Shown here in pieces: positions 219-38,981 of a DNA stretch of 40,382 bases (position 1 is the stretch's first letter; every line of letters starts with the position of its first letter). Origin of the DNA: Tubiluchus corallicola (Eukaryota > Animalia > Priapulida); NCBI GenBank assembly GCA_030141605.1, contig JAQGDQ010001453.1, positions 1-40,382 of the forward strand. Reading direction: 5' to 3'. A model generated the notes under the pieces. The model did no database searches and was not told where the DNA came from. It worked only from the letters and a program-made list of their open reading frames with translations. Both the position numbers and the translations under genes were made by a program.

Positions 219-3200
219 GTACGTTTAATAGCTAAATTGGAATTTCCTGGTGTTAAGTATGCACGGTTGCACTAATCTTTTATCTTTCTTTTCCGCTTCA
301 AATTCAAACTTGTAAATAAATGTTTAACCCAATCTGCTAAAAAAGCAATAGTCCAAGTAATGGCTTGAGCATTCTAAACAAGGTGTTTTTTGTGTATTTA
401 GGTGCAAGTAATGGCCCCCGAGCCACGTATTCTAAACAAGTACTTAGGTACAGGTAATGGCTCGAGCCAAGTATTCTAAACAAGGTGTTTTTTGTGTACT
501 TAAGTACAGGTAGCCACGCATTTTAAACAAGGTGTTTTTGTGTACTTGGGTACAGGTAGCCACGTATTCTAAACAAGGTGTTTTTTGTGTACTTCGGTAC
601 AGGTAGCCACGTATTTTAAACAAGGTGTTTTTTGTGTACTTGGGTACAGGTAGCCACGCATTTTAAACAAGGTGTTTTTGTGTACTTGGGTACAGGTAGC
701 CACGCATTTTAAACAAGGTGTTTTTTGTGTACTTCGGTACAGGTAGCCACGTATTCTAAACAAGGTGTTTTTCATGTACTTAGGTACAGGTAGCCATGCA
801 TTCTAAACAAGGTGTTTTTCATGTACTTAGGTACAGGTAGCCACGTATTCTAAACAAGGTGTTTTTCTTGTACTTAGGTGCAAGTAATGGCTCAAGATTG
901 TCCATCCTGTGAACCAGATGGTCAACTTTCTATCGAACGCAACATCACGATTAGAGTTGTTTATGATGAACTAGAGATTCCAACATTCGACAGGAATGAT
1001 GTAAGTGGTTAGAGGTTTAAAGGAAAACCGGATGATTGATTAGACTCAATCTCATTTTAATTTACTGTCCAAAATATGCATTTTTTACCTATTAAAGTTA
1101 ACAATTTTTCTAATATCTGAATAACAAGCTTGAAAAGTTAATTAAAGACAACTGAATACAGCTGTCACTTACGTCACAAACTAACCACAGTCAGATTATC
1201 CTCATTCTCGCGCATTGAGTCAAATGACCTCACTTTGAAGGCAAGAAGTGCAAAGAGTGGACCAAGTGCGCCGAATCTGCCATCTTGATATAAATTTTCT
1301 TATTTGTGATATAAGAATACCACAGTTGTGTGTTTAAATGCAGTGCAATCAATCGGAGCAGTTACTTCGTGGCAATAAAGACCTCACATTAAACTAAGCA
1401 TTGTTGTTTGGGTATCATCTCAATATATCAAACGAGTTTGGATTCATGTATTTTGGACTTGTATTGTGGTCCACAAAAGCCTTGATGATTCAAGGATGAA
1501 TTTGTGACTATAGATTCACAAGTAGATAATAGAAAATAGTTTCCTATCGACCGATGGTAAAACTCGCATAAATTCGTACTTGAACCCTGGACCCATTGGC
1601 CGCTGTCAACATTACAATATTCACATCTTCTTCTTCCCAACTTTTCCCTATTCGGGGTCGCCGTTGTGAATGGGTCTTTTCCACGCATTCCTGTTGTTGA
1701 CCATCTCTTCATTTATGTCTTCCCTTCCCACATGATCTTCACCGACTCTTCTTTTCAGGTGTCCGTACCATCGCAATCTTGCGAGGCTTCCACTACTTTT
1801 ACTGTTCCTCTGATATTATTATTTCTAATTTTATCTCTTCTTGTTATTCCCAACATCCATCTCAACATCCTCATCTCCACCACACCCATTTTCTTCTCTT
1901 CAGTCTTCTTTAGAGAAGCTGCTTCCAGCCCATAGATTAGAGCGGGTCTGACCATTTCTTCGTGGACTTTACCTTTAAGTCTCACCGACTCATTCATAGA
2001 AGGTTTTGGCGCACTTTTTGCAGGCGGATGCTCTTCCTGACCCTAACCCTCCCTATTTATCCGGGCTTGGGACCGGCACTGAGTTGGGCTGGCTTGCCTA
2101 CGCCATCCCCCCCCCCCAGTGGCTAGCTTAACATTACAATATTCACATATTGACTATAATAACTGCAAACAGAACTTACATAAATCACAATTCTGTGTAA
2201 CAACTTGGCATTTCTACAATTATGCATAAATATATTCAATAGTTTATACGTAGTACTTCTACGAGGGATTCAAAGTTTATAAAATTCATCATTTGTGTTA
2301 CTTTGCAGGTGCCTCCAGATCTGGAGTTGGAGGAGCATACAGCAGTTCCATACGTCTTAGACAAGAGCGGAAATCTTCCTCCGGCTTCTTATATTGATGA
2401 TGAAGTTGACGATAGTATTTGCTATGATGTTGTAGGTGAGTAAAATGGTTTCGCATTCAATTACTGCAGTTAAGTAATGAACACTGTCAACTCTGGTCAT
2501 CCAGCTAGGTGGCACTACAATCGCACTTGTGGCATACTGCTAATGAAAACACCAGTTGAAATAGTTGTTGTAGTTTTGTGATCAGATATGTGTATTTTGA
2601 ATGTTATTTTAAACTTTTAACACTAGATGGAGACACTGGTATTTATTTTTTATTACAATAGGTGGAGACACAGGTAATCAATTCAGAGCCGATGCTGTAG
2701 GAGACGGGAAGGAAAGATGGAACTTGACAAATGTCGTTGAAACGGACAGAGAAATAATCGAGAATTACGAGTGTAAGATTTTTTTGTAGAAGTTACTCCA
2801 CTGAAAGTATATCCGTTTTATGAGTTTGAATTTCTGATATCGAAAAGCTTAAACTTAGTCCATATTTTTTGAAGAATAGGGTAATTAAAAACTAAAAACT
2901 AAACTCAGATTTTTTTGTATTTTTTAACTTGTTTTTACCAAATCAAATCGCATGTATTAAATTTTGCTTTAAAAGGGATAAGTGTATTATAAAATTTTGT
3001 TTTAAAAGGGGTAAATGTATTATAAAATTTTGTTTTAAAAGGGATAAGTATATTATAAAATTATGTTTTAAAAGGGGTAAGTATATTATAAAATTTTGTT
3101 TTAAAAGGGATAAGTATATTATAAAATTTTGTTTTAAAAGGGATAAGTATATTATAAAATTTTGTTTTAAAAGGGGTAAGTGTATTATAAAATTATGTTT

Positions 3201-6200
3201 TAAAAGGTTTAAATGTATTATAAAATTTTGTTTTTCATAGATCATCTGTTGACCGTTTAGTGATACAGCAGCACATAAAAATCTTTTCTTATCCGTTTCT
3301 TTCCTAAAGTTTCTGTTTTTCTCTTTCTTTCTCGGTCATTAAATCGCGCATCACTTTTTTGGAAGTGGTCTTATCTGTGGCTCTTGTTTTTCAGTGGTTG
3401 TTCGTGCCAGGAATTGTAGAGCTGCCATAGATACGAGGGAGGTTCCCTACGATCCTGCGGATCTTACCCTCATACAGATAAACGTGAAAGTTTTAGACAT
3501 CAATGATCAGTCACCGGTCTTTGATTTGCAACTTTATGAAGCCGGAATGACGAGCGATTATAAACTAGACATGCTAGTCACAGATCAGATAAAAGTAAGT
3601 ACATGGCTGAGTGGTTACGTGCGCATGACTTGCATGACTACCTGGTTAAGATACTCGCTTTGAGAGGTTTCATTTCCTGTAGCGTTTCTTGTTGTTTGTC
3701 TCATCGCATCGTAGTAGATTGTGTACGAACACTACTGAGACACCTCTTGTGGTTCACTGGCTCAGTTTGAAGCTTGCATTGATCTTGAAACAAACATAAC
3801 TGTTGCATGACAGCAACATAATTGAGTAAGCCATGCTGTTGAATAATGGATTACGGCTTACAATGTGTGTTACGCATGAGCTCGATTAGTGATGACATCA
3901 TTGGGTAGCGTTCTCCAATGGCAGAAATCTTTCATAAGCATATTTTCAGTTTTTCAACATGCACATGAAAGTGAAGTAGTATATTTGGCATCAAACCTAG
4001 GGAAACGTTTACCATGGCTTCATTCATAAGCCTTTTCACAGATTTTTTTGTGTGCAAGCACAGTTGCCGCAGCATATCTTGACTACAACTGTCTCATGAC
4101 ATGTGGTTAAAGCAAAACTGTCTGTTCCATCAGTTCAGCAAAACAGTTGTTTTATGCATTAGTCTGTGTATAGAGTGATTTACTAGCAGAATCTTGCTTG
4201 GGAACAAGACAGTTGAACTAGGTAAGGTTCTAGCTAGCTGTTAAAACTGTTAGTAATACGATAGCATGGACTGCGAGACGTTGTCAAGTGTTCACAAAAG
4301 TGTTGTCTAGTACACTTAACCTTTGGCCTTTTCAACATCATCATTAATTGTTGGAACTGTGAAACGGCTTATGGTCAGCCAATTTGAAAGAAAGTTTGTC
4401 CTGGTTTCTCAGAAAGTTTGCATGAATTTCAGGTTGTATTTGCTCATTTTTCAGGCAACAAGTTCAGACTTACCACCATTTAATGTCATTACATACAGCA
4501 TTGTAGAAGATTCATGGAATTATGATGAACTGAATTATAATTATGAAGCAGAAACAAGCTTGTAAGTTACGTTTTAATTGTCTCTTGTAAACGATAAAAA
4601 ATTTAAGTTGCAAATTTAACTAAAGCAGGGGCGGAACTAGGGGGGAGCGAGGGGGCGCGCACCCCCTTGTCAAAATTTGCGCCCCTCCCCCTGCAAAATC
4701 GAACAAATAATTTTTTTTGCAGTGAAAATTGCAGTTTGCATGTAGTCATTTTCAATATGAATTAGAATTAGGTAAAAGATGTTTGGTAGCTTCAGTGTAT
4801 TATTTTCTTAAAACTTGTGTGTGATAAATTTCTGTAAATAACAATTTAGTTAGAGGCACATTAATAACGTTAGGTTAACTGAGAGTTAATTTTCTCATTA
4901 TTGCTATGTCCGCTACGCCGTCCTACACACGTGCTAATTATAGGCCTGCATGCAGTATAAAAGGGGTTAACATTGGCTTAACCATTATTTAACCACTTCG
5001 GATACCTCGTCCCCCCCCCCCCAGAAAATTTTTGCACCCCCCTGCTTGCCACATCTAGTTCCGGCCCTGAACTAAAGGCTGTTTGGACACTTGAAATTTC
5101 TCTTCTTTTGGTGAATGAGTTTTTTTTGCATTGGAATGTTCATTGTATTAATAAGTAATCTTAATGCGACATTTTTAATATGTTAGTTACTATTAGCATG
5201 ATGATAAATTTTTTAATTAAATTCTTTAACTTGTGAAACAATGATGTAGTTTGCAAATTTAGCTGTGCCGAGTAATAGTTGCTGTATTTGTTATACCAAG
5301 TATAACCAGTCATTTCAACCCTTGTTTTTTACTTTGTTACTTTCTTATGTTTATGGTCAGATACAAGTTACTGCACATATCCTCAGTTTTGCATTAAAGC
5401 ATAAACATTTTTATGATAGTGCTGCCACCTGTAGGTAGTTTTTGCTTATGAATTTAGTTGAGTTTCTGATTAAATAAGGTCTGTAGTATAAATTTATTTT
5501 GTAATTTTATCTAATGTAATTCTTCACAGACAATTTAGCAACTGCATTCTTGTTTATAGTAAGAACTCAAACAATTCTTCCCTCTTGTTTCTAGTTTTTA
5601 CTTAGTTTAGTTTTTAGTTTAGTTTATGGTTAAGTAAGCAGATAATGAATGCATTTAAATTGCTTCAGTTCATGATTTATTATTACAGAGAACCATTTAG
5701 AATTGACCCGGTCACCGCGGAGTTGTATTTGAACCACGAACCCCGTCTGGATGGGGCAGGAATTATAAAGTTCAAAGTACAAGCGGTGGACGATCCCACA
5801 CCTCCAGGGCCCCACACTGCAACGAGTGATGTTTGGGTAACTTGCACCTACATGATTTATCATAGTTTATTCACATCTGTGCTTGTAATGATATCAATTC
5901 ATGCTGTTAGTTCAGAACCGGGAAAAATATTAAAGGAAAACAGGATGATTTTTTGATAGTAATAGTCATAATAATAGTAATTTTATTTTACTCCATAATT
6001 ATACAATGATTTGACAATAAAATACACAAAAATACAAACGAACATGGGAGAAAGGCTGGCGAAAAACCAAAGGTTATCGAGTCAACCACCCTTCTCAAAA
6101 AGACAGTAAACAAAAGGACGCTAATGACAGCAGACACAACTATATTAAAAAATACATAAACGTGCAGAAATACAAAAACAAAAATACAACAACAGCAAAA

Positions 6201-9200
6201 AAAACAAAAATCAAAAACCATGACAAATTGATGAGCAACTCATTGAAAATACCTCACAATTGTTTCTGAGTGAAATCATTAAGTCCATTTTGCTGACTGT
6301 GTTGCCTGTAATATAAGAAGCATGTTCATTATTGTACATTATAGAAAGTGAATTTGCACCTTATAAAAAAATGTTTTTCAGCAAAAGTTACCACAAGAAT
6401 GTACATCTAATAGACAAAAAATTGATTTATTTGTAAGTTTTAAGAAGTGCCTTAGCGTACTGTTTATTTAGCCAATGCAGAGGTAAAGAAGTTATATGAG
6501 CAGGTAGGGAGTTCCATAATATCCTGGTCTTTTTTGAAGTATGGTAAAGTATACATTTCAATGATTATAATAATGCGAAATTGTTTCGGATATTTAAGTA
6601 ATAGGTTAAAAACTTAATTAACGACCAGCGAACCTAGTAAGTGACGACATCACAAGTGAACAATTTTAAACAGCACGAACATTTGATGAGCGTGTTGCAC
6701 ATGTCTGTGAAAGCAAAAATTTAACTAGATTGTTACCGTACAATGCTCAGTGGAATATTGAAAAACCCGGCAGATTTTGAGCTTAAAAATTAAAGTTCAA
6801 GTTTGCCGCTATGCTTACATGTGCTGTTAGACGCGTGCACCACATCACAACTGAACACCTTAGAATTAAGAGGTACAGCACCTGTTTTTCATGCAACGTA
6901 TATTCGAGATGCAGGCATTAGTGCTCATCTACCATGAATGGCAAAATGCCTGTAGCAGTAAAGAACTAGGTAATTAATACAGTTTTCTGCCACCAGGGTG
7001 TCAATGCTGTTGATACATTGAAAAAATAGAGGCTTGCAAACTTTTGTGGGTACAGGCAAATTTTTTAGCTGCCTGTCCACATTTATGGTAGAAAAAAATT
7101 GCTAAATTTGCTTAATGTTATTTAAAATTTATAAAAGTATAAATTTGTTAGACTAATATTATTATGTATTGCATGTGTTATTATGACACTATGTATAATT
7201 TCAAGTTTACACTATGTATGTTCTGTACTAGTTTAAGGTTTATGCTACTTATGTATGACTTGTTCTAGGTTTATCTTGTATCAGAAGTCAATCAACTAAG
7301 ATTCGTATCGGCATTAACTAAGGACGAGTTCAGAACCATACAGCAGGATTTCATAGAGTGAGTCAAATTTAAAGCATTTATTGTGTTACATTCAACTTTC
7401 TCAACATTTGCCACTAACAAAACTGTGAATCAAAAGCGTCCGTAAGTTGGCATAGCTGAAATTATCTTGTGATAGTTCAAAATAGAATGCAAACTTGTTC
7501 AAAAATTGGGTGAACATAATTTTTTTTCCAAGAACAAGTACTAACATTATTGGATATTTATATTCTAATTGTCAGTCTAATCACAATTATAATTATTGTA
7601 TTGCGAATAATATCAGAATGGTGATCTAAATCTTATATATCTTTCGTTTTCAGCAAACCAAATATACTTTGCTATGTAACTATTAACTTTAAAGATTTTC
7701 TTTTTATAGAAATTCTACATGGTATTAACTATCGCACGATAAAAGAATCTAAAGTGAATTAAAAAATGTACATGTACATGGCACATTAACACACGAGCAT
7801 GTTATAATATATAATGTATATTATATATAATGTTATTATCATGTTATATGTTATATAATATATATTATTTTATATATACATTAGACTTGTAATTATAATT
7901 ATAATTGTGGAAAACTTGCATTTTCAAACTCTGATACCAGCTCATGGAAGTAGTCATTTTGCTTGCAGTTATTTCTCCTGACAAGCCCAGATCTTCATCA
8001 GGAAGAGCCATCTACTGGTTTTAAACATAACTTCAATGTGCTCTTGCAATGTCCACAGCAACCACACTTTCGTATGTTGCTAAGTGTTTTGTAGAAACAC
8101 GACAAAAAACAATGGCTAACTTTAACAGTGATTTTCTCAGGTTATGTTTTTCAATGCATAGCCTGAACTTCAACGTGGATTATCTCAGCTTAGAAATAAC
8201 GTAGAATGCTGAACTTGGTATAAAAATGATTCTCATGAAATGGAGATTTAGCATATAGAATAACTAGAAAAGCTTAATTGCTGACTTATGGATGATTTTG
8301 TTGTGCAAGCACACACAGAATAATTCGCTGCAATTGTGATGCCATTTTTCTAATTGTTATCAAAATAAGCCTTTTCACAGTTCCTGTAATTGAATGTGAT
8401 CCTGAAAAGGTCAAAGGTTAAGTGTGCCAGGCATTTGTGTACACTTGACAACGCCTCGAAGCCTATGCTATTGTAATAATAGCAGTTTTAACAACTAGCT
8501 AGAACCTTACTTAGTTCATTTAGATAGATCCTGCAAGTAAATCACTCTATACAACAGACTAATGCATAATTAAGTAAAGTTCTCGTAAAACAACTAAGGT
8601 TACTGAACTGATGCTGCAGAAGGCTTTATTTTATACACATATCACATGACGGGTGTAATTAAGATGCGTTCCTGTCTTTTAAACTTTGACTTACAGCAAA
8701 AGCTTGTTACTTAAAATTAGTCCACATTGTAATTAAAGACTAAATATCATTTTGATGAGTTATTTATCTTTGCTTCAATTTTAATCATATTCTTATTAGA
8801 TTCACCTGTCGAAGTTCTAATTAGTTAATTAATTAATGGAAATTGAATTTTCGTCTGTTTTTGTAGTGAGCTGAGTCGACTAATTAATGCTGAAACGATC
8901 GTTGATTCTGTGACAAATTACGTTGATGAGAATGACGAAGTATCAGCTACTTTGTAAGTAACAATTTCTAGCTCCTTGTAACTTGTGCAGGTAACAGCGT
9001 GAATAGCTACAGTTCACAAATTTTGCTTTTCTGTTAAAATGTCTGATTTGTAAGACTTGCACAAAAGTTTATCAAGAACTTTAATTTAATATTTTCTGGA
9101 CTTGTACAAACGTTCACGTTTTATGGCACTTGATTAGTTCTCAAAATCACCACCAGGGCAGAATCATTTCTGATTTTTGTTTAGCAATAATTGGACTTTG

Positions 9201-12200
9201 TTTGTATAAAACTAGAAAGTTTAACATTCATGGAGTTGATAAGAATTTGGTCGAACTTCACCAATGAGCAAGAAGAAAGGACGTTGTGGTCATGCGTGGT
9301 CAATTGGTTATGTGTGCTGTAGCCTAGCAAGTGTGCGCGTGTGCTTGTGTGCGCATGCGCGAGCATTGTTACGCTACCTGTCGGTACAGTTTCCAGGATT
9401 GAAACAGGACTCCGGAAAACCTGGAGTCAAACTGACAAAGTAGAGCTGCTAGATGGTAGCATTAGAGCTTTGAATGGAATTTTTATGTTAATTGAATTTT
9501 TTGTAACATTTTCTATTCTTTGCAGGATATCAATCTACACACATTTTGTAAAAGACGGAGAAATTGCAGAAGCCGATGTGATTTATGAGTGAGTTTAAAC
9601 TAAACATGATCTTTGTATATTCTGCATGTGAATAGTTCAAGTACGTTTTTCAGAAATACAATCAGCACCGTTTATTAGATTCACGATTAATGTTACTGTT
9701 TTATATCATACCGATGAAAATAAATCTTATCTTATCTTATCTTATCTTATCTTATCTTATCTCATCTCATCTCATCTCATCTCATCTCATCTCATCTCAT
9801 CCTATCCTATCCTATCCTATCTACTACTATCTATCTATCTATCTACACACACACACACACACACACTATCCTATCCTATCCTATCCTATCCTATCCTATC
9901 CTATCCTATCCTATCCTATCCTATCCTATCCTATCCTATCCTATCCTATCCTATCCTATCCTACCCTACCCTACCCTACCCTACCCTACCCTACCCTACC
10001 CTACCCTACCCTACCCTACCCTACCCTACCCTACCTTATCTTATCTTAATAGACTTGATCGCTTAATTACTTATAAAAATCAGGTACGGGCCGCTCTTAT
10101 TCAAATGTACATACAAACTGTCAGTAATTGACTCAAATAATTCTGCCTGAGGTATTTAAAATAAAGCACTTGTGTTTTACGAAAGAACTTTTAACACTTT
10201 TATGTTTTCTTTACTTCACCTTTGTAGAAACAATGAAGTTAAGTTACTGTTTTGTTTGTAGGTATGTCTGTTTGTGATGCCCTAATAATACTAGCATCGC
10301 ATTTTTGCTTTGAATCTGTCACCAGCTCATCCGCTCTGATTAACCTCATTACTCAAGCATTTATGGAAACTAATTTTAAGTGTAAAGACCTAGTATTTAA
10401 AGCTCTTGCAACCGTTGCAGTACTTACTAAGCTGAAGAGTAATGACTCGTATTACTAACAAATGTTGCATCCATTGGTTAATGATTTAGTAAGTTAGTTA
10501 GTTCACAACACTCTCATCCCAAAGTGACTCTATTAAGCGGTGTCTATCGTATTGTAAAAAGTGAAACAATTTGGCTAGTGTTTAATCTTAACTTTAAAAA
10601 GCGTTTATCACATATGCTTGCTGTTGCGGTAATATAGCTTAAATCGTCCATTTAAACAAAAACAGTTTGCAAAGGCCGTAGAAAAAATCTCCTTCAATGA
10701 ATATTGTTAAATTGTACTTAAGCAGCATTGTTGTTTGTTTTTAGCAGCATTGTTGTTTGTATTTAAGCAGCATTGTTGTTTGTTTTTAGCAGCATTGTTG
10801 TTTGTTTTTAGCATTTTGAAACAGAATGACGAACAATTGAATCCATTCTATGAGGAATTCAGGATTACCGGTGTACAGGTCGGTATTTGCCTTTATAGCT
10901 TTTATAGGTATTGCTATTATAGCCTTAAAGGATTATTCCAATGCAAGTTTGTTTACATGTTGTTTATTGTCCATACTAGGATCTTGACCGGAAAGTGCAT
11001 TAACCCTTTGCTATTATAGCCTTAAAGTATTATTCCAATGCAAGTTTGTTTACATGTTGTTTATTGTCCATACTAGGATCTTGACCGGAAAGTACATTAA
11101 CCCTTTGCTATTATAACCTTAAAGTATTATTCCAATGCAAGTTTATTTACATGTTGTTTATTGTCCATACTAGGATCTTGACCGGAAAGTACATTAACCC
11201 TTTGCTATTATAGCCTTAAAGTATTATTCCACTGCAAGTTTGTTTACATGTTGTTTATTGTCCATACTGGGATCTTGACCGGAAAGTACATTAACCCTTT
11301 GCTATTATAACCTTAAAGTATTATTCCAATGCAAGTTTATTTACATGTTGTTTATTGTCCATACCAGGATCTTGACCGGAAAGTACACATCACATCTCCC
11401 ACACGAGTGTTTGTTCTTGCTTTGATCATAACCTGTGTACTTTTGCCCCTTATCATCGTCGTGCTTATATGCGTCTGGTGTGCAGAAGTAAAGAAGTAAG
11501 TCTCCAGTTAGCATTGCTATGCACTGCATGTGTTTAACACCCCGCGCAATGCACACTGCACGATCACCGCATTGCATGCACCATTTTTCTATTGTTAATT
11601 ATCACTGCCTGCACTGTGTTCTACTGAATCGACTAACTTTTGTTGTAGTTTTGACTTCGTGTCTCAAATTGATTTAATATGTATTTGATAAAAATACTTA
11701 ACTCAAGAAGAATGACTCTAAGATCTAAAATTTTTGAAATTGCTACATCATAAAATTATGAAACGCGTCGAACCGGAATCTTTGAGTGCAAAAAAACCTT
11801 TGAAACTAAACGAAACTTGAGCTGGTTCATATCTAAATACTGTTCAGACTTCACTTTGTCTCATTTATGAAAAATTCAACTTCATGTAGATGAAAACGAA
11901 ATTTTTTTGCCTTTGTCAAAGTGTATTTTTCTTTCTAATTAATCGAAGAGCTATTTAATTCAATATCTTTGGTCTTCCTTGATTGAGTCATAGAGCAGAA
12001 AATTCGGTGGTCAAGTATTTTTATCAATTTATTTATCAGCTAACTTCTTTTTAACTAACACTATAATTTATGCATGCATTCATTATTTTTGTTACCACTA
12101 GAGGGTGTACGTCGAGGAAGTGATACTTGTTGACCAATCGCACTCCTATCTGATTGCACTGATTATTTGCGTAGTCGTGCTGTGTCTTATTATAGTAATT

Positions 12201-15200
12201 TTATTGGCCATTTGGTATCACGAAGCACAGAAGTAAGTTTGATTGTGAAACTGCTATGTAGTTGTTTATAACATTGCCATTTTGCTTGTGTGTTGTTACA
12301 TAGTTAAGTTCTTGTACACAGAAATTAGTACACATTTACAGTAACACACTACAGACAGTTGTGAAAGACGTTCTTTTGTTGTTAGTCAAGTTTTCGTGGA
12401 CAGAAATTAGTACACATTTACAGTAACACACTACAGACAGTTGTGTACGTTCTTTTGTTGTTAGTCAAGTTTTCGTGCACAGAAACAGACAGTTGTGAAA
12501 GACGTTCTTTTGTTGTTAGTCAAGTTTTCGTGGACAGAAATTAGTACACATTTACAGTAACACACTACAGACAGTTGTGAAAGATGTTCTTTTGTTGTTA
12601 GTCAAGTTTTCGTGGACAGAAATTAGTACACGTTTACAGTAACACACTACAGACAGTTGTGAAAGATGTTCTTTTGTTGTTAGTCAAGTTTTCGTGGACA
12701 GAAATTAGTACACATTTACAGTAACACACTACAGACAGTTGTGAAAGACGTTCTTTTGTTGTTAGTCAAGTTTTCGTGGACAGAAATTAGTACACATTTA
12801 CAGTAACACACTACAGACAGTTGTGTACGTTCTTTTGTTGTTAGTCAAGTTTTCGTGCACAGAAATTAGTACACGTTTACAGTAACACACTACAGACAGT
12901 TGTGAAAGACGTTCTTTTGTTGTTAGTCAAGTTTTCGTGGACAGAAATTAGTACACATTTACAGTAACACACTACAGACAGTTGTGAAAGATGTTCTTTT
13001 GTTGTTAGTCAAGTTTTCGTGGACAGAAATTAGTACACGTTTACAGTAACACACTACAGACAGTTGTGAAAGACGTTCTTTTGTTGTTAGTCAAGTTTTC
13101 GTGGACAGAAATTAGTACACATTTACAGTAACACACTACAGACAGTTGTGTACGTTCTTTTGTTGTTGGTCAAGTTTTCGTGGACAGAAATTAGTACACG
13201 TTTACAGTAACACGCTACAGACAGTTGTGAAAGACGTTCTTTTGTTGTTAGTCAAGTTTTCGTGGACAGAAGTTAGTACACATTTACAGTAACACACTAC
13301 AGACAGTTGTGAAAGATGTTCTTTTGTTGTTAGTCAAGTTTTCGTGGACAGAAATTAGTACACATTTACCATAGCACACTACAGACAGTTGTGAAAGACG
13401 TTCTTTTGTTGTTAGTCAAGTTTTCGTGGACAGAAATTAGTACACATTTACAGTAACACACTACAGACAGTTGTGAAAGATGTTCTTTTGTTGTTAGTCA
13501 AGTTTTCGTGGACAGAAATTAGTACACGTTTACAGTAACACACTACAGACAGTTGTGAAAGATGTTCTTTTGTTGTTAGTCAAGTTTTCGTGGACAGAAA
13601 TTAGTACACGTTTACAGTAACACACTACAGACAGTTGTGAAAGACGTTCTTTTGTTGTTAGTCAAGTTTTCGTGGACAGAAATTAGTACACATTTACAGT
13701 AACACACTACAGACAGTTGTGTACGTTCTTTTGTTGTTAGTCAAGTTTTCGTGCACAGAAATTAGTACACGTTTACAGTAACACACTACAGACAGTTGTG
13801 AAAGACGTTCTTTTGTTGTTAGTCAAGTTTTCGTGGACAGAAATTAGTACACATTAACACACTACAGACAGTTGTGAAAGATGTTCTTTTGTTGTTAGTC
13901 AAGTTTTCGTGGACAGAAATTAGTACACATTTACCATAGCACACTACAGACAGTTGTGAAAGACGTTCTTTTGTTGTTAGTCAAGTTTTCGTGGACAGAA
14001 ATTAGTACACATTTACAGTAACACACTACAGACAGTTGTGAAAGATGTTCTTTTGTTGTTAGTCAAGTTTTCGTGGACAGAAATTAGTACACGTCCACAG
14101 TAACACACTACAGACAGTTGTGAAAGACGTTTCTGTTGTTAATTAGTCAAATTTTCTTGCTTTGAAATTGTATTCATTTACTGTAACACACTAAAAGCTG
14201 TTATAAAACAAACTAGTGTTAGTTTGCCAGTTTTTGTACAGAAAAATTGATGTTCATTTACCGCAAAGCCTAGCACAATACAAACAGTTATGAAAGACAT
14301 TCCGCTTTCATTCACAGGAGAGTAAAAGCAGTTGGAACGTGGTAAAGCAAAGCTGTCTGAATATGTATGGGGTCTATAAGCAGTAGAGACTTGGAATGAA
14401 ATTTGTTAATTTATGCCAGATTTGACAGAAGTGGTGTAGATTCTTTCCAAAAAGAAATGCTGCAAAACAAAAAAAACTGTGCGCGAAGTTTGAAAAGCAA
14501 TTTACACGATTTTTGCCTCTCTAAACTATTCACACTTTATATTATTTTTTTACTTATTTTGAAGTTTATTTCAGCACACACAGTGATGTTATATAAAAGG
14601 AGCAATTTACACTAAAATTTAAAAAACACTATATGTCATGCACTATTAAAAGAACTACTAATATATACAAAAAAAATATGATAAAAACACGTACAGAATT
14701 TAAAATTTCTTTTATTTATTTTGAAGTTTATTTCAGCACATACACAGTAACGTTATATAAATGGAGCAATTTACATTAAAATTTTAAAAAACACTATATG
14801 TCATGCACTGTTAAAAGAACTACTAATATATACAAAAAATATGATAAAAACACGTACAGAATTTAAAATTTCATAGTGTAAGTTAAAAAGCTGCTTTTAC
14901 TAAATCAATAAACTTGACCATCTCTTACATATTCTGCTGTATACAATGAAATTTGCAGACTTGGTGATTCGTTGTCTTAAACTGAGTGATGCAGTAGTAT
15001 CTAGAATGTTGTATGCTGTTTTGTGCACATATTATAGAAGATGGCGTATCATAAGCATAACATGTAGAAAACTTGTGAAGAGTATTGTTGTAAGTGATGC
15101 AGATCTTGGTTAAACTGTATGCTTTGAAATTGTTTTATGGTAAAATACCAACTTGTTTTTTTTTTGTGTTTCTTTATTCTGGTATCTTAGCTGGTTTATT

Positions 15201-18200
15201 TTCTTTATTTTGGTGTTGGTTGTTTTTGTTTTTGTTTGTTACATATCCTCAATGATGACAGCAACATGTTGTAAAATGTAAATAGTTATCAAAAAATGTT
15301 TCAAAATTATAGAACTGTAATGACGTATAATTTTTTGGAAGAAACTTGTAATTATAACTAGTTTATTTTTTTATAGTTTTTAGTTTATTGACTGTTTTGT
15401 TTAAGTCTTGGTAATTTGATATAATTTTCACCAATTTTTACATATCATATTGGTATGTTTTTAGGTACAAGAGAAAACTTCGTGCTGCTAATGCTATGAA
15501 TTTTGGTAAGAAACTTATTCTGCTAAGTTTATATGTATGTATTTTTGTACAGCGTAAGATCAGAATGAATATGTCCTTAAGTTTCTGTACAGAAAAAATA
15601 CATAAAGCTAATGCTAGAATCATTAAAGACGACAAAATAATACAAAATGTCCCTCATAAAGTTCAGACTTATTTCCCTGCAAACTTATTCTGTTGTAAAT
15701 TAGTTGATCAAGCCTTTAGGAAGAAACATTTCAGCGCAAATTAGATTGCATTATGAAATATGAAAATCACTGGCGATTGTAAATTTCTGTTACAGTAATA
15801 ACATTAAAATTCAATTTGTTACAGATAGATTTCAAAATTGTGATGAATATTATATGATATGAATATAAAATACAAATATCGATATTTTCAACTACATTTC
15901 ATAAAAATCTTTTGCCGTAGTTATGACTCTGAATGTTTTTTGAACTTTGTGTTCATACTTGCATTATTGTTCACAAGCAAAACAGTTTTTTGTTTGAAAT
16001 ATTGATCAGTTTTAAAAAACACCTTGAGACAAATGCAAGCCTCGCTCCGCTTAATTTCAGAAAGCTTGAACCTCTTGGAATTGCATTGTTATATGTGTAT
16101 GTGCGGTTGGCTGATGCATTGTTTCGGAGTTTAGTGGTCATATGATTTACAGCCGCATTGTTTGTGTATGATGTGTGGTTGGCTGATGCATTGTTTCGGA
16201 GTTTAGTGGTCATATGATTTACAGCCGCATTGTTTGTGTATGATGTGTGGCTGGCTGATGCATTGTTTCGGAGTTTAGTGGTCATATGACTTACAGCCGC
16301 ATTGTTTATGTATGAGGAAGTTAATTAAGGTCAATCTGCATTGATTTTAAAACATGTTCAGTCTTGTTTTACGTTGGGTTTTTAGCTTTTGTTACTATTA
16401 TATTGATTATAGTGCATTCAGTACTACTTGTAATTACTTGTAAAGGTAAGGACAAGTTATTTAACAAAGAAATTTGCGAAAAACTGTCTATAAGGCAGCT
16501 AATTTGTAAGGCAGCCCACTACTGTTTAGAAATTTTCAGACGTGATGGTAGCTGCAATTCATTTGAAAAGTAAGATGTAACTAGTAAACTTTGTGACTTT
16601 TCATAAGCACATTGTGGCTTGTGCATAAACACTTGCTGCTTAAGCTAATTCAGATTTCTCCAACTTATCTAATGTTTATGCAAAAATATCACAAAACTCT
16701 TTAAGTAATTGTTTGTAAAAACTGATTATATTTATGACGGAAGTTGATGGTGTGTTGCTGTTCTTCCGTCAATGACTGACGTCATTCCTGGAAAAATGGG
16801 GATTCAAAATAGGAGAGCATGAAATTGTCATTTTTATTATAATTTTATTACTAATTCTTTCGCAAACATTGAAATAAGTTTAACTTTCCGGAAAGCTTCA
16901 CCTTTCCCGAATCAGGGGCTCGATTACTATTTTGAAACTGAGGCTCATGTTTTCTTCTAATTGGAAATACTAGTTAGTTTAGACAAGTATGCGTAGCTTT
17001 GAGTGTCAGTCATTCGTGACGAGGTGTGCACTACAGTCTAAACGGGCTTCAAAGAATACAAGTTTACCCTAGGTAGAACACAACAAGTATGCGTAGCTTT
17101 GAGTGTCAGTCATTCGTGACGAGGAGTCCACTACAGTCTAAACGGGCTTCAAAGAATACAAGTTTACCCTAGGTAGAATAGAATAGATGTATGACGTATT
17201 GGTAGCTCGATATCAGAAGCTACAATGTGATCTAAGCCTGTATTTTTTGAAGTTCACTTTAGACACTAATTACAAGCAGTATAAGAATGCACTCATAATT
17301 TCCTAGCAAATTGCTTAATTATCATCTTAATTGTTTATTTCAGCTAAACGGGGTGAGTGATGCTGATTGGTAAATTATTGTGCCGACATTGTCACATGAT
17401 CACAGACAATGCAGACATTGTCACATGATCACAGACAATCACAGTCGTGAATAATAAAAATGGGTTGAACAATGCATTTTTGTTAGGGGTGAGCATTGAA
17501 CGTACGAGTTCGATTCGAACGAGTTTTTTCAGTTCGAACTCGATTCGAATGTAAAACTAGAGATTCGAGTAATTCAGCACTTCAATCACACATGTTCCTG
17601 ATCATTAAAATGATTGAAACATCATTCAATTAGCATAATTTCGCTGTGATTTCTGCACACAATTTTAAAGAAATTACTAGTCGTTTTATTGTAGAACAAA
17701 ATCTAGTGATATGCATGACCTTTGTACGACTAATTTTTACTGGTGGTTCGAAAATCTTTCAATCTCAATTCGAATTCGAAACATTGAAGTTTGGTTCAAT
17801 TCGAGTTCGAAAGTCACAAATTCGGTTCGATTCAAATTCGCTTTCTGGTAGAGAATGCTCACCCCTAATTTTTGTGCAATATCAATTATGTACATTTATG
17901 GATTGTTCAGCCTTTTGTGATTGGTCGCAATGATTTTTAAATGCCCAATAAGAAGTATGAGTGACCGTGTAGTTGTTCTGAGTCTTTCCATCACAACTTT
18001 GATCACATGATTTGTCTGAATCAGCCAATCACAACAATAACTGATCACGTGTTTGTTTGGCTCATCCAATCATGTGTTCTGGATATTCGTGCTGTGGTTT
18101 TAATCATGTGACAATGTGCTTAACGGTGCATTAGTGGTGTTGGCGTGGATGGGGTGCACTCTGGTGTCGGTTGCAGGAACTAACAACCACGTTAACATTT

Positions 18201-21200: not shown

Positions 21201-22961
21201 TAAACAAAATGTTATTTTTGTTTTTTAGTCAAAATTCTTTAGATGAAAATAACATTGTGGACGAGGACAAACTGGAGTACAATAAAGCGCCACTAGATGG
21301 TGTTGACAGGATAAACGTGGATGATGTAAAACTTCGGAATAATTTGAACTTTTTATACAAGTAAATGTTTTTAAAATTAACATTTTTTTTAAATTAACTT
21401 TGATGAATTTGATAATTAAGAAACGGCACAAAGTGAAGTTTGTGGCTAGACGCTATTGCAGTTCTATGGCTTTGGCAGCTTCAAGATTAGTCCCTATTGC
21501 AGTTCTATGGCTTTTGGCAGCTTCAAGATTGGTCTCTATTGCAGTTCTATGGCTATAGCAGCTACAAGATTAGTCCCTATTGCAGTTCTATGGCTATAGT
21601 AGCTACAAGATTAGTCCCTTTTGCAGTTCTATTGCTATAGCAGCTACAAGATTAGTCCCTATTGCAGTTCTATTGCTAAAGCAGCTACAAGATTAGTCCC
21701 TATTGCAGTTCTATTGCTATAGCAGCTACAAGATTAGTCCCTATTGCAGTTCTATGGCTATAGCAGCTACAAGATTAGTCCCAATTTGCAATTCTGTGGC
21801 TATAACAGCTAAAAAAGTAGTCCCTTTTGCAGTTCTATTGCTCTAGCAGCTGCAAGATTAGTTCCTATTGCTGTTCTGTGGCTATAACAGCTATAGGATC
21901 AGTCCCTATTGCAGTCTATGGCTTTGAAAGCTTCAAGATTAGTCTCTATTGCAGTTCTATGGCTATAGCAGCTGCAAGATTAGTCCCTATTGCTGTTCTG
22001 TGGCTATAGCAGCTATAGGATCAGTCCCTATTGCAGTCTATGGTTTTGGCAGCTTCAAGATTGGTCTCTATTGCAGTTCTATGGCTATAGCAGCTACAAG
22101 ATTAGTCCCTATTGCAGTTCTATGGCTATAGTAGCTCAAGGTTTATGACTAGTATAGTTCTATCGTCCCAGCAGCTATAGGACAAGCACTATTATCAGTA
22201 TGTTATTCACTTGCAAATAAAGATAAATAGCTGACTGCTATCGTGTTTGTTTTTAATGACTGAATTTGAATAAAGCTGGATCTGATCAGTAAGTGGATGG
22301 GTGATGGTCAGGAAAATCACTGCTAGGCAGTTTTGTCAGTCACTAACTTCACTAAGAGAGGATCAGATAAGACACTCCAGACAGTTCAGTATCTCATCTT
22401 GGAGATTTATAATTTATGCTTGGAGATAATAGGTTAAATACCAATAATTGTCAACTTGATAAATGGGTCCTGAATATGAACTTGTGATGTGTGGGACTGT
22501 ATGAAAAATAATGAACTGAAAGATGATCAATGTCATGGTACCAGAAGTGAACAGCCAGGATCAGCATGGCAAACGAAACTACTTAGAGGCAATAGTGAAA
22601 CTCGTTCATTAACTGATCAATTTCACTCTTGTTGCCAACTTCATTTGCCAAGCACATGCCGTGACCATTCAGCTGTTGTCGAAAAGTCGAACCTGGGTTA
22701 CATTTACAGCATTTAGTGTGCAAGGTCAAGGTCAAGGTCAAGTTCACTTAGTCAATCAAATGAATCATGATATAATTCTAACAGAGTGTAAAATAATTTT
22801 CAGTTGTTTGTTTGTTTATTGTCTGATGAACATCCATCTTTTTTTGTTGCAGCAAAACCGGTGGAGACGTGAATCATTACGTCACTAATAACGGTCTGCA
22901 GCATCAGTACGAAGATCCGGAGGTGTTACAGGTGCCAAAATTACCCACTAGCTATCTTTGA
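33..22961 (+). CDS. Non-classical cadherin, CDH23/Cad87A/Cad88C-like (3' part of a spliced gene; 5' exons lie outside the window)
   Basis: GT-AG exons with consistent phases give one open frame: cadherin motifs (DLDHDEN, TDRE, VLDINDQSPVF), membrane-adjacent domain, TM, tail YKRKLRAANAMNFG...PNTNKYAYEGSNPIW...PTSYL*. The tail motifs resemble CDH23/Cad87A/Cad88C as I recall them; exact orthology is not established. Confidence 0.9.
352..892. repeat. 46-47-bp tandem repeat (~11 copies) overlapping the acceptor of exon 878
   Basis: aaacaaggtg recurs at 478, 525, 571, 618, 665, 711, 758, 805, 852. Confidence 0.92.
878..1000 (+). CDS. cadherin exon (VQVMAQDCPSCEPDGQLSIERNITIRVVYDELEIPTFDRND)
   Basis: tacttag acceptor, gtaagt donor, 123 nt, phase 0-0. 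Confidence 0.85.
1627..2129 (-). mobile_element. internally deleted non-autonomous RTE-clade LINE derivative with 19-bp TSD
   Basis: TSD aacattacaatattcacat at 1608-1626 and 2130-2148; (GAA)n 3' tail; peptide KGKVHEEMVRPALIYGLE...EMRMLRWMLGITRRDKIRN typical of the RTE ORF C-terminus; 5' UTR retained. Confidence 0.9.
2047..2129 (-). ncRNA. twister ribozyme core (P1-type, with long P3) at the RTE 5' end
   Basis: Minus strand reads U|AA GCUA GCC ACUG...CAGU GCCGGUCCCAAGCCCGG AUAAA UAGG GAGGG, matching the canonical twister core UAA-P2-GCC...GCCGGUCCCAAGCCCGGAUAAA-P2'-GAGGG. Confidence 0.85.
2309..2435 (+). CDS. cadherin exon (VPPDLELEEH...DSICYDVV)
   Basis: ctttgcag acceptor, gtgagt donor, phase 0-1. 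Confidence 0.85.
2662..2772 (+). CDS. cadherin exon (GGDTGNQF...ETDREIIENYE)
   Basis: caatag acceptor, gtaaga donor, phase 1-1, DRE motif. Confidence 0.85.
2952..3235. repeat. 33-bp tandem repeat (~8.5 copies)
   Basis: unit tattataaaattttgttttaaaagggataagta. Confidence 0.92.
3395..3594 (+). CDS. cadherin exon (LVVRARNC...VLDINDQSPVF...DQIK)
   Basis: tttttcag acceptor, gtaagt donor, phase 1-0, DxND-x-x-PxF calcium-binding linker. Confidence 0.92.
4125..4300. repeat. dispersed repeat copy; inverted relative to ~8435-8615
   Basis: tatgcattagtctg..gtatagagtgatttac..gtaaggttctagctag..gttaaaactg..cgttgtcaagtgt is the reverse complement of blocks at 8440-8570. Confidence 0.7.
4455..4561 (+). CDS. 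cadherin exon (ATSSDLPPFNVITYSIVED...ETS)
   Basis: tttttcag acceptor, gtaagt donor, phase 0-2. Confidence 0.85.
4626..5069. mobile_element. hAT-type MITE
   Basis: TIRs caggggcggaactag / ctagttccggccctg (14/15 match); 8-bp TSD aactaaag at 4618-4625 and 5070-5077. Confidence 0.9.
5689..5836 (+). CDS. cadherin exon (EPFRIDPVTAELYL...VQAVDD...SDVW)
   Basis: attacag acceptor, gtaact donor, phase 2-0, F-x-I-D-x-x-T motif. Confidence 0.88.
7269..7357 (+). CDS. cadherin membrane-adjacent-domain exon (VYLVSEVNQLRFV...QQDFI)
   Basis: ttctag acceptor, gtgagt donor, phase 0-2. Confidence 0.85.
7905..8160. repeat. dispersed repeat copy; inverted relative to ~19590-19812
   Basis: ttttcaaactc..agctcatggaag..gtcatttt..cccagatcttc..tgttttgtagaaac..aacaatggctaac is the reverse complement of blocks at 19590-19800. 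Confidence 0.7.
8867..8953 (+). CDS. cadherin membrane-adjacent-domain exon (ELSRLINAETIVDSV...VSAT)
   Basis: ttttgtag acceptor, gtaagt donor, phase 2-2. Confidence 0.85.
9526..9588 (+). CDS. cadherin membrane-adjacent-domain exon (ISIYTHFVKDGEIAEADVIY)
   Basis: ctttgcag acceptor, gtgagt donor, phase 2-2. Confidence 0.85.
   Translation, partial: DINLHTFCKRRRNCRSRCDL
9725..10048. repeat. compound microsatellite (TCTTA)n-(TCTCA)n-(CCTAT)n-(CTAT)n-(CA)n-(CCTAT)n-(CCCTA)n-(TCTTA)n
   Basis: directly visible. Confidence 0.97.
10718..10815. repeat. 22-23-bp tandem repeat ending at the acceptor of exon 10812
   Basis: agcagcattgttgtttgt(t/a)ttt x4. Confidence 0.85.
10812..10878 (+). CDS. cadherin exon (ILKQNDEQLNPFYEEFRITGVQ)
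   Basis: tttttag acceptor, cag|gtcggt donor, phase 2-0. Confidence 0.82.
10911..11387. repeat. 97-bp tandem repeat (5 copies) containing the acceptor and first ~20 nt of TM exon A
   Basis: ctattata recurs at 10914, 11011, 11108, 11205, 11302. Confidence 0.95.
11368..11495 (+). CDS. transmembrane exon A (DLDRKVHITSPTRVFVLALIITCVLLPLIIVVLICVWCAEVK)
   Basis: accag acceptor, gtaagt donor, 128 nt, phase 0-2, ~23-residue hydrophobic segment. Confidence 0.78.
12102..12232 (+). CDS. transmembrane exon B (RVYVEEVILVDQSHSYLIALIICVVVLCLIIVILLAIWYHEAQ)
   Basis: ccactag acceptor, gtaagt donor, 131 nt, phase 0-2, hydrophobic segment aligning with exon A. Confidence 0.82.
12300..14150. repeat. ~82-bp minisatellite (~22 copies)
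   Basis: unit cagaaattagtacacatttacagtaacacactacagacagttgtgaaagacgttcttttgttgttagtcaagttttcgtgga. Confidence 0.97.
14545..14872. repeat. ~160-bp tandem duplication
   Basis: ttattttgaagtttatttcagcaca...cacgtacagaatttaaaatttc occurs twice. Confidence 0.85.
15465..15505 (+). CDS. cadherin juxtamembrane cytoplasmic exon (KYKRKLRAANAMNF)
   Basis: tttttag acceptor, g|gtaaga donor, phase 2-1, basic stop-transfer motif. Confidence 0.85.
16083..16315. repeat. 72-bp tandem repeat (~3.2 copies)
   Basis: ggctgatgcattgtttcggagtttagtggtcatatga x3. Confidence 0.9.
16983..17178. repeat. ~101-bp tandem duplication
   Basis: acaagtatgcgtagctttgagtgtc...tttaccctaggtagaa x2. Confidence 0.9.
17344..17352 (+). 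CDS. candidate 9-nt microexon (adds AKR)
   Basis: ttgtttatttcag|ctaaacggg|gtgagt; consensus sites, phase 1-1, frame-preserving. Confidence 0.5.
17484..17867. mobile_element. hAT-type MITE with subterminal TTCGA repeats
   Basis: perfect 14-bp TIRs taggggtgagcatt / aatgctcaccccta; 8-bp TSD atttttgt at 17476-17483 and 17868-17875. Confidence 0.92.
19034..19154. repeat. (CATTGT)n / TATCATTGT simple repeat
   Basis: directly visible. Confidence 0.92.
19200..19266 (+). CDS. cadherin cytoplasmic exon (GETMEVDLNTLKTPNTNKYAYE)
   Basis: atttcag acceptor, gtaaga donor, phase 1-2, PNTNKY motif. Confidence 0.88.
20158..20241 (+). CDS. cadherin cytoplasmic exon (GSNPIWMEQDYDNPGFEEHEHEDEDDSI)
   Basis: tttgcag acceptor, ag|gtgaca donor, phase 2-2, G-x-NP-x-W motif. 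Confidence 0.85.
21229..21360 (+). CDS. cadherin cytoplasmic exon (SQNSLDENNIVDEDK...NLNFLY)
   Basis: ttttttag acceptor, aa|gtaaat donor, phase 2-2. Confidence 0.75.
21452..22142. repeat. 41-bp tandem repeat (~17 copies)
   Basis: unit ctattgcagttctatggctatagcagctacaagattagtcc. Confidence 0.93.
22853..22961 (+). CDS. cadherin terminal exon (KTGGDVNHYVTNNGLQHQYEDPEVLQVPKLPTSYL*), class I PDZ ligand
   Basis: tttttgttgcag acceptor, phase 2, TGA at 22959-22961, S-x-L C-terminus. Confidence 0.82.
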
Positions 22962-25538: not shown

Positions 25539-26570
25539 TTACAGAGAAATAATTTCTTGCACATTCTCACTCTCAATGTTCACATGATTAACGGCAGTCC
25601 TGATCACATCTCCATGACTTGTTTTGTGCCGTAACAGACTTTTATTGTGTAGGAACGACTTCTTGCATTTATCGCACTTGTAAGGCTTAATCTTCCTGGT
25701 CATTTCATCGTGGTTTCTCATGTGTTTCAACAGGCTTTTGTTGTGTAAAAATGACTTTTTGCACTTATCACACTTGTAAGGTTTAACGTCCTTACATTTG
25801 TTCAATTGCGAATTAATGTCTTTGTTGTTTTGGTCACTGGCGCATGGTTTTCTTTTCGTATGATGAATCGACATATGTCCTCCCAAGCTTTGCTTCGAAG
25901 AAAACGGTTTGCCACATTCGTGGCAATTGTAATGTTTCAATGCACATTTGCCTGGTTTGGCACTGTTTTCTTTTTTGTGGCTCAAAGCCATATGTCCTCT
26001 CAAGCTTTGCTTTGAAGAAAATGATTTACCGCATTCTCGACAATTGTAAAGTTCCAATTCACTTGTCTGTGACTTTTCTGTTGCGTGTTTAGCTGTGGCA
26101 TGGTCTGCCAGAGATTTCTCTTGTGTAACCACGCGCTTGTAAGATTTCACCATGTGTTCTGATGGTTTCCGTTTTGTAAGATGGTGAGCAGCTACGTGTC
26201 CCCCAAGGTGTTGTTTTACCGAAAATGATTTGCCGCATTCGCGGCACTTGTAAGGATTTAATTCAAATTTTGAAATGGGTTTTGAAATTAAGTGTCCAGC
26301 AGGTTTATGCTTGACACGCGAAAGTACTTTACCAGACTTGACGCTTTTGTAAGGCTTTGGAATTGCACCGCTGCGATTAGTGTACTTGGAAATTGAGCTG
26401 TCATGAAAAGGAGAATTGCATTTGTAATGTTTCACATGTGAATGACTTCTCATGTGAACCACCAAACTGTACTCAGTGTAAAAAGATTTTGTGCATCTGG
26501 TGCACTTAAAAGGTTTGAAAGGTTTGCGAGCGAGTGTGGAAAGCAGATAGTGACCAGTGAACATTTTCAT
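25539..26570 (-). CDS. C2H2 zinc-finger protein, single coding exon, six recognisable fingers plus degenerate ones
   Basis: 343-aa ORF with C-x2-C-x12-H-x3/4-H fingers (CTRC, CREC x2, CHEC, CDKC x2) and KPYKC linkers. Confidence 0.88.
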   Translation of the reverse strand: MKMFTGHYLLSTLARKPFKPFKCTRCTKSFYTEYSLVVHMRSHSHVKHYKCNSPFHDSSISKYTNRSGAIPKPYKSVKSGKVLSRVKHKPAGHLISKPISKFELNPYKCRECGKSFSVKQHLGGHVAAHHLTKRKPSEHMVKSYKRVVTQEKSLADHATAKHATEKSQTSELELYNCRECGKSFSSKQSLRGHMALSHKKENSAKPGKCALKHYNCHECGKPFSSKQSLGGHMSIHHTKRKPCASDQNNKDINSQLNKCKDVKPYKCDKCKKSFLHNKSLLKHMRNHDEMTRKIKPYKCDKCKKSFLHNKSLLRHKTSHGDVIRTAVNHVNIESENVQEIISL

Positions 26571-37224: not shown

Positions 37225-38179
37225 ATTTATTTATATATTTTACTTTTCATTGAATAAGTTTTTCGTAATTTTTATAAAGGAACTAAAACATGAGAATGTT
37301 GTCACGTGTAGTTTCCAAAAATATTACTTCAACTGAAGCGCAAAAGGCCATGAATATTTTGTTTTATTAACTATATTTGCCGCTAACAGAGGGCAGTACA
37401 ATAACGAAAGCACGTGCAAGAACGTGAGGTATCTTATAAGCCGGCAGCGTAGTAGATGAACAACAGGAAATGTTAGACTGTCACGTGTATGTGCTTAACT
37501 ATATGATGATTTTAATGCTTTGTGTCCATCTGCCTAATGCAACCAAATGAAGAAATTACAATTAAATATTAAGTGCACAACGTAATTAACGTAACCATCG
37601 GACATATTTAAAGAGGAATAAAGCAAGAGATTTCTCTTTTTTGTACCTTGACTGAATTAAATGAAATTTCAACATTTATGATGGAGGATTAATTATATAG
37701 AAATAATTGTTTGGCACTTTCAAGTATAATTATTTAAGTTAATAATTGTCATTTCTGTATTATATTATATTGTATTGTATTGTATTGTTATTATATTCAT
37801 GTATGTATGTATTGTAAATATGTAATTAATTATATTTGTAAATGTACGACAACAATGGCAGCCGGCTGCGGTAGGACTACTGGTAGTTGTTCGTACGGTG
37901 GAAGAGGTTATACTGCAAAAGACAAAAGAACAACATTGAAGATCAAAACACTACTTGAATAAACGCGCATTGTTGCTAGTTGAGGGTCTCAGGTCGAGGG
38001 TACTATGTTCACACTCACTCACAATTGGATATTTAAAACTGGTTTAATTTACTGTCAGAGAAAGATTGAAACCAAACCTGTTTGAAATGCCACAAACCTG
38101 GCTTTAGTTAACAAACATTCTTTCACAATCGAATATTTTGTGTTTTAATAAAGTATAAAAGCATAGAAGGATTGTGTAC

Positions 38180-38975: not shown

Positions 38976-38981
38976 AGTAAA

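What the first reader, a model, noticed from the sequence alone, without database searches (positions are those of the whole stretch)
2041..2148. Twister ribozyme whose scissile U|A coincides exactly with the 5' end of an RTE insertion
Seen: on the minus strand the 19-bp TSD ends ...aatgtt and the element starts AAGCUAGCC-ACUG[P3]CAGU-GCCGGUCCCAAGCCCGGAUAAAUAGGGAGGG. Known: twister ribozymes cleave at U|AA just 5' of P2, carry this core, and have been reported at 5' ends of RTE-clade elements in schistosomes. Inference: the inserted copy is the complete 3' cleavage product, so self-cleavage defined the retrotransposing RNA. The target site restores a U at -1, but the 5' strand of P1 is lost and the first P2 pair is a G-G mismatch, so present activity is uncertain. 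It is antisense to the host gene and would not cut the cadherin pre-mRNA.
Basis: partly seen in the sequence, partly recalled or inferred. Interest (0 to 1): 0.78.

Follow-up and report, generated by a model that had tools for sequence, protein, structure and literature searches.

The report
Twister-headed mini RTE jumping element
This 503-base insertion is one slightly worn copy of an abundant shortened jumping gene that begins exactly where a twister-type RNA is predicted to cut itself, so self-cutting likely made its front end, as already published for a blood-fluke retrotransposon.

Summary
A 503-bp minus-strand element (1627-2129) lies between exact 19-bp target-site duplications, and its first bases are the AA of a P1-type twister ribozyme. 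Rfam twister-P1 hits weakly (35.5 bits, E 6e-6, under the 67.2 cut-off). A model built from 20 other loci places the fold at 2130-2047 (60.7 bits, only hit). The element is not a lone truncated LINE. It joins an RTE-type 5' UTR to the end of the RT reading frame and a (GAA)n tail, and is highly repeated. Of 38 listed contigs from other copies, 31 leave the element at or within 2 bases of the AA (small, biased sample). Their consensus has an intact P2, so the G-G mismatch is not the family state. Published tests show twisters tolerate P1 and P2 defects, so this copy may still cut; untested. TSDs abutting the twister AA are published for Schistosoma Perere-3, and two-ended non-autonomous RTEs are known; the combination was not found in my paper searches. 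This scan noted it before in other genomes. A real, neat, but further example.

The parts
2130..2148 (-). Target-site duplication on the element's 5' side; supplies the U at -1 (2130) and a poor P1 5' strand
1608..1626 (-). Target-site duplication on the 3' side (exact 19-bp match)
1627..2129 (-). 503-bp two-ended non-autonomous RTE-type element
2128..2129 (-). AA of twister loop L1; predicted scissile bond between 2130 (U) and 2129 (A); first bases of the element
   Evidence: cleavage position from PMC8501958 sections 17 and 19
2124..2127 (-). P2 5' strand GCUA (other copies' consensus CCUA); G.G mismatch at the first pair in this copy
2122..2123 (-). GC of the 2-bp pseudoknot, partner 2065-2066; intact
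2077..2121 (-). Long P3 hairpin (45 nt) with a poly-G tract that varies in length among copies
   Evidence: -23 kcal/mol, z -2.6; indel tables
2061..2076 (-). P4/L4, identical to the Rfam consensus; CCC 2069-2071 pairs with GGG 2047-2049
2052..2055 (-). P2 3' strand UAGG
2047..2051 (-). GAGGG of L1 (general-base G at 2051, assignment recalled); intact
1989..2046 (-). Rest of the RTE-type 5' UTR (P1 3' strand UUAG at 2043-2046, then the CAGGAAG.GCAUCC motif shared with longer elements)
   Evidence: 82% over 111 nt to L084, 75% over 113 nt to L131
1794..1988 (-). Remnant of the RT reading frame's C-terminal part, piece 1
   Evidence: 55% identity to full-length proteins
1654..1782 (-). Remnant, piece 2, in another frame after a deletion of about 16 nt, with a further deletion of about 30 codons at 1718-1721; runs to the last residues of the ORF
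   Evidence: (loose ends)
1627..1647 (-). Short 3' UTR ending in (GAA)3 repeats
1001..2308 (+). Host intron of a cadherin-like gene that holds the element antisense (splice sites read by eye)

Best explanation
[quoted passage not shown] Shown: TSDs, twister fold, 5' boundary at the AA, internal deletions, high repetition, and clustering of other copies' ends. Inferred: copies have no promoter of their own and are transcribed by read-through from host DNA; the twister cuts N|AA, discarding the host leader; the partner protein recognises the RTE-derived 3' tail and primes target-primed reverse transcription; each new target supplies a fresh -1 base and a random P1 strand. Because the -1 base can be any letter and P1 is dispensable (published), most full-length copies would stay able to seed new copies, which would explain the copy number. 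This copy is about 2% diverged from the family majority and has all catalytic and pseudoknot positions intact; I put the chance that it still cuts in vitro at about 0.6. It lies antisense and would not cut the host pre-mRNA.
For: Fold: (P2 changes on both sides in 4 of 4 pairs across 20 loci; 95.9% of cells paired against 25-54% when slid). Family ends: loose ends, 12 of 15 (X1), 8 of 10 (X2), 11 of 13 (X4) at or within 2 bases of the AA, with diverging flanks (consensus agreement 0.57-0.72). Abundance: depth over the element 2,900-5,950 times the flank in X1 and 2,800-12,900 in X2 (rough, not a copy number). Head and tail joined in other copies: X2 record 14 and X4 record 20 bridge the junction, and X1 depth does not drop there. 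Partner present: loose ends at 1718, 1721 and 1983 carry the missing RT codons (translated by eye, matching the proteins). Long APE+RT elements headed by the same ribozyme: L080, L028, L012, L131 (Pfam for three of them). No tRNA and no B-box match inside the element. Precedent: PMC8501958 sections 18, 19, 21; PMC11662667 passages and section 33.
Against: No cleavage assay and no RNA evidence. The end sample is small and biased: 63, 22, 1 and 29 contigs were laid, rows give consensus letters rather than each contig, 3 rows were not shown, and X1 and X2 are one sample. Seven of 38 contigs end elsewhere: 3 stop 5-8 bases short, 3 run on to 2136 (the same loose letters in three runs, so one locus) and 1 to 2146. 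Head-to-tail depth is 0.8 in X1 but about 0.33 in X2 and 0.05 in X4, so many copies may be 5'-truncated or carry another head. Rfam's gathering score is not reached. The free minimum-energy fold forms P3 but not P2/P4 (pseudoknots are not modelled). A G.G first pair of P2 was seen in 0 of 98 parsed loci (the parser favours pairs). RTE-clade membership rests on architecture, not on a tree.
Confidence: 0.82

Rival explanations
1. The 5' UTR holds an internal promoter that starts transcription at or next to the AA; the twister is a vestige or serves only RNA stability or protein binding.
For: Some LINE 5' ends carry both promoter and ribozyme (Pr77 of L1Tc; search listing). DNA ends alone cannot tell a start site from a cut site. 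P1 pairing in 71 eukaryote-like loci is no better than shuffled (1.62 against 1.60 pairs).
Against: The boundary falls on the scissile bond to the base, here and in two unrelated families (27 and 12 copies). P2 keeps pairing through changes on both sides across families. No B box or tRNA head in the element. Perere-3 twisters cleave in vitro and in reporters (PMC8501958).
Confidence: 0.09
2. This copy is a one-off internal deletion of a full-length RTE made during its own insertion; the high depth comes from full-length and truncated LINE copies, not from a short family.
For: Depth is summed over short contigs and no contig spans the whole element. Head depth is much lower than tail depth in X4.
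Against: Contigs with about 10 other letters, hence other copies, bridge the head-tail junction; loose ends that carry the missing coding sequence are few (1 to 10 contigs per place); no insertion is listed near 1783-1793, so the frameshifting deletion appears shared by the majority (1 indel row and 279 loose-end rows not shown).
Confidence: 0.06
3. The ribozyme at this site has been adopted by the host to process an antisense RNA that regulates the cadherin-like gene.
For: The catalytic core carries none of this copy's 10 private substitutions.
Against: That absence is expected by chance (P about 0.5); the copy is one of very many; P2 has been hit by a mismatch.
Confidence: 0.03

Closest known systems
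T-variant twister ribozymes at the 5' end of Perere-3, Schistosoma mansoni (PMC8501958; abstract, sections 17, 18 part 1 of 2, 19, 21, 22 read; one supplement file searched)
   Same: P1-type twister core; TSD directly next to the cleavage-site AA; target DNA supplies -1 and the P1 5' strand; non-specific targets; short 3' repeats.
   Different: Perere-3 elements described there carry an APE/RT ORF; this family is about 500 bp and non-coding, has P2 CCUA/UAGG rather than CUCC/GGAG, a 45-nt poly-G P3 and a (GAA)n tail, and lies in another host.
Bipartite non-autonomous RTE elements such as RTE-N2_Lch, RTESINE1/2, WALLSI3, Bov-A (PMC5786205; parts 1-3 of 5 read)
   Same: Only the 5' and 3' ends of an RTE-type LINE, no small-RNA head, true 5' end kept. 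The paper suggests a 5' ribozyme may explain the kept end.
   Different: The parts read name no twister. The 3' part here is long (about 360 nt) and includes RT coding remnant with two further deletions.
R2 SIDEs of Drosophila (PMC3414825; abstract read)
   Same: 5' self-cleaving ribozyme joined to a LINE 3' end, cut out of a host co-transcript, mobilised in trans.
   Different: HDV-like ribozyme (class from PMC6765202 passages), rDNA site-specific, rare; here a twister, varied targets, very abundant.

Membership tests
Twister ribozyme, type P1 | Conserved L4/L1 core and both pseudoknots | tested here: met
Twister ribozyme, type P1 | Rfam RF03160 gathering score (67.2 bits) | tested here: not met
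   35.5 bits, E 6.1e-6; long P3 and missing P1 lower the score; custom model 60.7 bits
Twister ribozyme, type P1 | 4-bp P2 | tested here: inconclusive
   3 of 4 pairs in this copy; 4 of 4 by the other copies' consensus letters
Twister ribozyme, type P1 | P1 stem | tested here: not met
   2 weak pairs of 4; reported dispensable (PMC11662667 passages) and variable in T-variants (PMC8501958)
Twister ribozyme, type P1 | Site-specific self-cleavage at N|AA | not testable with these tools
   needs an in vitro assay
Retrotransposon T-variant | TSD directly adjacent to the cleavage-site AA | tested here: met
Retrotransposon T-variant | Other copies begin at the same AA with unrelated flanks | tested here: met
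   31 of 38 listed contigs; small, biased sample
Bipartite non-autonomous RTE | 5' end and 3' end of a LINE joined, no intact ORF | tested here: met
Bipartite non-autonomous RTE | Multiplied as a unit | tested here: inconclusive
   high depth and bridging contigs, but no assembly and no whole second copy seen
Bipartite non-autonomous RTE | No tRNA-derived head | tested here: met
   (5S and 7SL heads: no Rfam hit)
RTE clade | Parent with a single APE+RT ORF and tandem-repeat 3' end (features as given in PMC5850137 passages) | tested here: met
   relatives L080, L028 (one ORF) and L131 (two overlapping frames) carry Exo_endo_phos and RVT_1; (GAA)n tail here; this genome's own parent seen only as loose ends
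RTE clade | RT phylogeny with named RTE elements | not tested
   no named RTE reference came back; the label rests on architecture and recall

The most novel reading that the evidence does not exclude
The twister is the general 5'-end-making module of a whole branch of RTE elements in animals and plants, and because it needs neither P1 nor a fixed -1 base, any full-length copy in any transcribed place can seed new copies; this would explain why RTEs spawn abundant promoter-less two-ended parasites and why so many eukaryotic twisters exist.
Probability: 0.5. Interest if true: 0.55.

Novelty: new member of a known kind. Interest (0 to 1): 0.33.

Why it matters
It extends the one published biological role for eukaryotic twisters (Perere-3) to a short non-coding parasite in another host, and supports the idea that a 5' ribozyme lets a LINE derivative multiply without its own promoter. 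The family is a natural set of P1 and -1 variants on one core, easy to assay. It does not change a principle.

Tried and rejected
No whole genome is held, so copies could not be collected one by one. No second copy in the window. The exact 31-nt family core gave 0 matches in metagenome and viral contigs. No RNA holder listed; X6, RNA only by guess, gave one 35-nt contig match with unlike flanks: no evidence either way. Rfam's inner 5' strand (2093-2100) was rejected: two P2 mismatches and it breaks P3. Folding of the 5' UTR remainder and of the 3' tail was no better than shuffles (z 0.65 and -0.63), so no tail stem-loop is claimed. Pfam has no family for the RT end remnant. Protein searches gave no RTE-named reference. 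Four terms in the one held supplement file of PMC8501958 gave no hit; the supplement of PMC11662667 could not be read and may list this or a related ribozyme. Lack of private changes in the core is not evidence of selection.

Full report
Observation. An exact 19-bp direct repeat at 1608-1626 and 2130-2148 brackets 503 bp (chance about 3e-8). The first two bases inside are AA (2129, 2128), then GCUA, GC, a 45-nt hairpin, the P4/L4 core, AUAAA, UAGG and GAGGG. Rfam gave nothing at gathering thresholds and a twister-P1 hit at 35.5 bits, E 6.1e-6, by E-value; that alignment used an inner strand because the model has little room for a long P3. I aligned 20 twisters from other organisms, checked the structure on them (95.9% of 320 cells paired, all four P2 pairs with changes on both sides, 25-54% when slid) and built a model. 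It gave one hit in the window, 2130-2047, 60.7 bits, with the -1 base on the last base of the TSD. The core match is partly by construction; the 5' register is not.

What the element is. The first 141 bases resemble the 5' UTRs of longer elements (82% over 111 nt to L084, 75% over 113 nt to L131). L084 runs on into endonuclease codons; L080, L028, L012 and L131 have twister, then APE and RT (Pfam for L080, L028, L131). From 1988 the element matches the last 146 or so residues of such ORFs at 55% in the first piece, with a frameshifting deletion of about 16 nt and a deletion of about 30 codons, then a stop, a short UTR and (GAA)3. So it holds the two ends of a LINE and codes for nothing. There is no tRNA and no B box in it. 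The RTE label rests on single-ORF APE+RT relatives and the repeat tail (features as in PMC5850137 passages); no tree was built.

The family. No genome is held, so I laid public DNA contigs on it. In X1, depth over 1624-2087 is 2,900-5,950 times the flank; in X2, 2,800-12,900. The tool warns that this is no copy number, so I claim only 'very abundant, probably thousands'. Ten positions differ from 99% or more of the depth, about 2% over 472 nt, none in the core (P about 0.5 by chance). Contigs from other copies bridge the head-tail junction (X2 record 14, X4 record 20). A few loose ends at 1718, 1721 and 1983 carry the missing RT codons (translated by eye), so a longer partner exists. Against uniformity: head-to-tail depth is 0.8 in X1, about 0.33 in X2 and 0.05 in X4.

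5' ends. In one search (63, 22, 1 and 29 contigs laid; 3 loose-end rows not shown) the 5'-side loose ends were: X1, 12 of 15 at 2126-2130; X2, 8 of 10 at 2126-2131; X4, 9 of 13 at 2126-2130 plus 2 whose loose letters read through the same AA. Total 31 of 38, with X1 and X2 one sample. The rows at 2126 have consensus letters that read AA-C on the element strand and then diverge (agreement 0.57-0.58), in all three runs. So the family P2 is CCUA/UAGG, fully paired, and this copy's G at 2127 is a minority or private change. The rest: 3 stop 5-8 bases short, 3 run to 2136 (one locus seen in three runs), 1 to 2146.

Wider picture. A degenerate core pattern gave 139 matches in 137 loci (the metagenome scan stopped at 120 of about 280). 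Of these, 33 scored too low to parse and 8 were duplicates; 98 remained. In two families of 27 and 12 copies, agreement is 0.74-0.96 and 0.58-1.0 inside the element but 0.30-0.48 and 0.42-0.75 in the ten bases before the AA; the -1 base in the larger family is A 11, U 9, C 6, G 1. P1 pairing in 71 loci I judged eukaryote-like equals the shuffled mean (1.62 against 1.60), whereas in 18 prokaryote-like loci it exceeds it (2.44 against 1.77, range 1.39-2.17); labels were by eye, 7 loci were set aside and 2 lacked flank. Three of 39 had short TSD-bounded elements starting at the AA.

Mechanism. Inferred: read-through transcript, twister cut at N|AA, capture of the 3' tail by the partner's protein, target-primed reverse transcription, new TSD next to the AA. 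PMC8501958 showed cleavage for such variants with any base at -1 (section 19) and proposed this cycle (section 21). PMC11662667 (passages, section 33) found P1 and P2 imperfections and long P3 hairpins largely tolerated, while pseudoknot and catalytic changes were not. This copy has three stem mismatches and intact pseudoknots, so it may still cut; the G.G pair sits next to the general-base G (recalled) and was seen in 0 of 98 parsed loci, which tempers that. It is antisense in an intron of a cadherin-like gene.

Novelty. TSD beside the scissile AA is published for Perere-3; two-ended non-autonomous RTEs are reviewed in PMC5786205, which already suggests a 5' ribozyme as the reason they keep their true 5' end; ribozyme-headed internally deleted elements are known for R2 (PMC3414825 abstract). 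A twister on a two-ended RTE was not found in searches, which cover open-licence papers only; Repbase, Dfam and the unread supplement of PMC11662667 may hold examples. This scan noted the same arrangement in seven earlier findings from other genomes (unchecked notes, read after I had formed this view); none for this sequence or this genome. Verdict: real, well supported at family level, a new member of a known kind; interest 0.33.

Noticed in passing
L035, L063, L082: Short twister-headed elements of about 160, 236 and 306 bp with 11-15 bp direct repeats abutting the AA: 3 of 39 eukaryote-like loci with enough flank; control anchors 5-50 nt upstream gave 1 hit in 7 offsets.
   Followed up: partly
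L080, L012, L028, L131, L009, L011, L128 and others: 14 of 49 twister matches with 600 nt or more downstream are followed by RTE-like coding sequence (two of them are the queries themselves); none of the 17 I judged prokaryote-like by eye. Several lie in bacterial assemblies (L128, L129, L131) and look like eukaryotic contamination; L131's closest named proteins are from catfish.
   Followed up: partly
71 eukaryote-like loci: The P1 3' strand is almost always U/G-rich (UUGC 26, UUGU 23, UUGG 11), which could pair loosely with many target sequences; observed pairing equals the shuffled mean.
   Followed up: partly
L008, L043, L105: Twisters with no P3 and a full 4-bp P1, a different type in which the upstream strand is kept.
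   Followed up: no
window 2130-2146: Two other copies match this copy's target for 7 and up to 17 bases past the AA: possible target preference or alignment bias.
   Followed up: no
window 33104-35917: A second, broken LINE on the minus strand with APE and RT domains.
   Followed up: no
window 35869-37232 and 38975-40349: Inverted repeat pair of about 1.4 kb at 94% identity, perhaps a foldback or DNA transposon.
   Followed up: no
window 25539-26570: 343-residue C2H2 zinc-finger frame on the minus strand.
   Followed up: no
window 12301-14302, 21453-22140, 465-886, 10911-11387: Tandem arrays with periods 82, 41, 47 and 97; the 47-bp array seems to repeat the acceptor region of the exon at about 878.
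   Followed up: no
window 17462-17833: Cluster of five B-box-like matches; no tRNA called.
   Followed up: no
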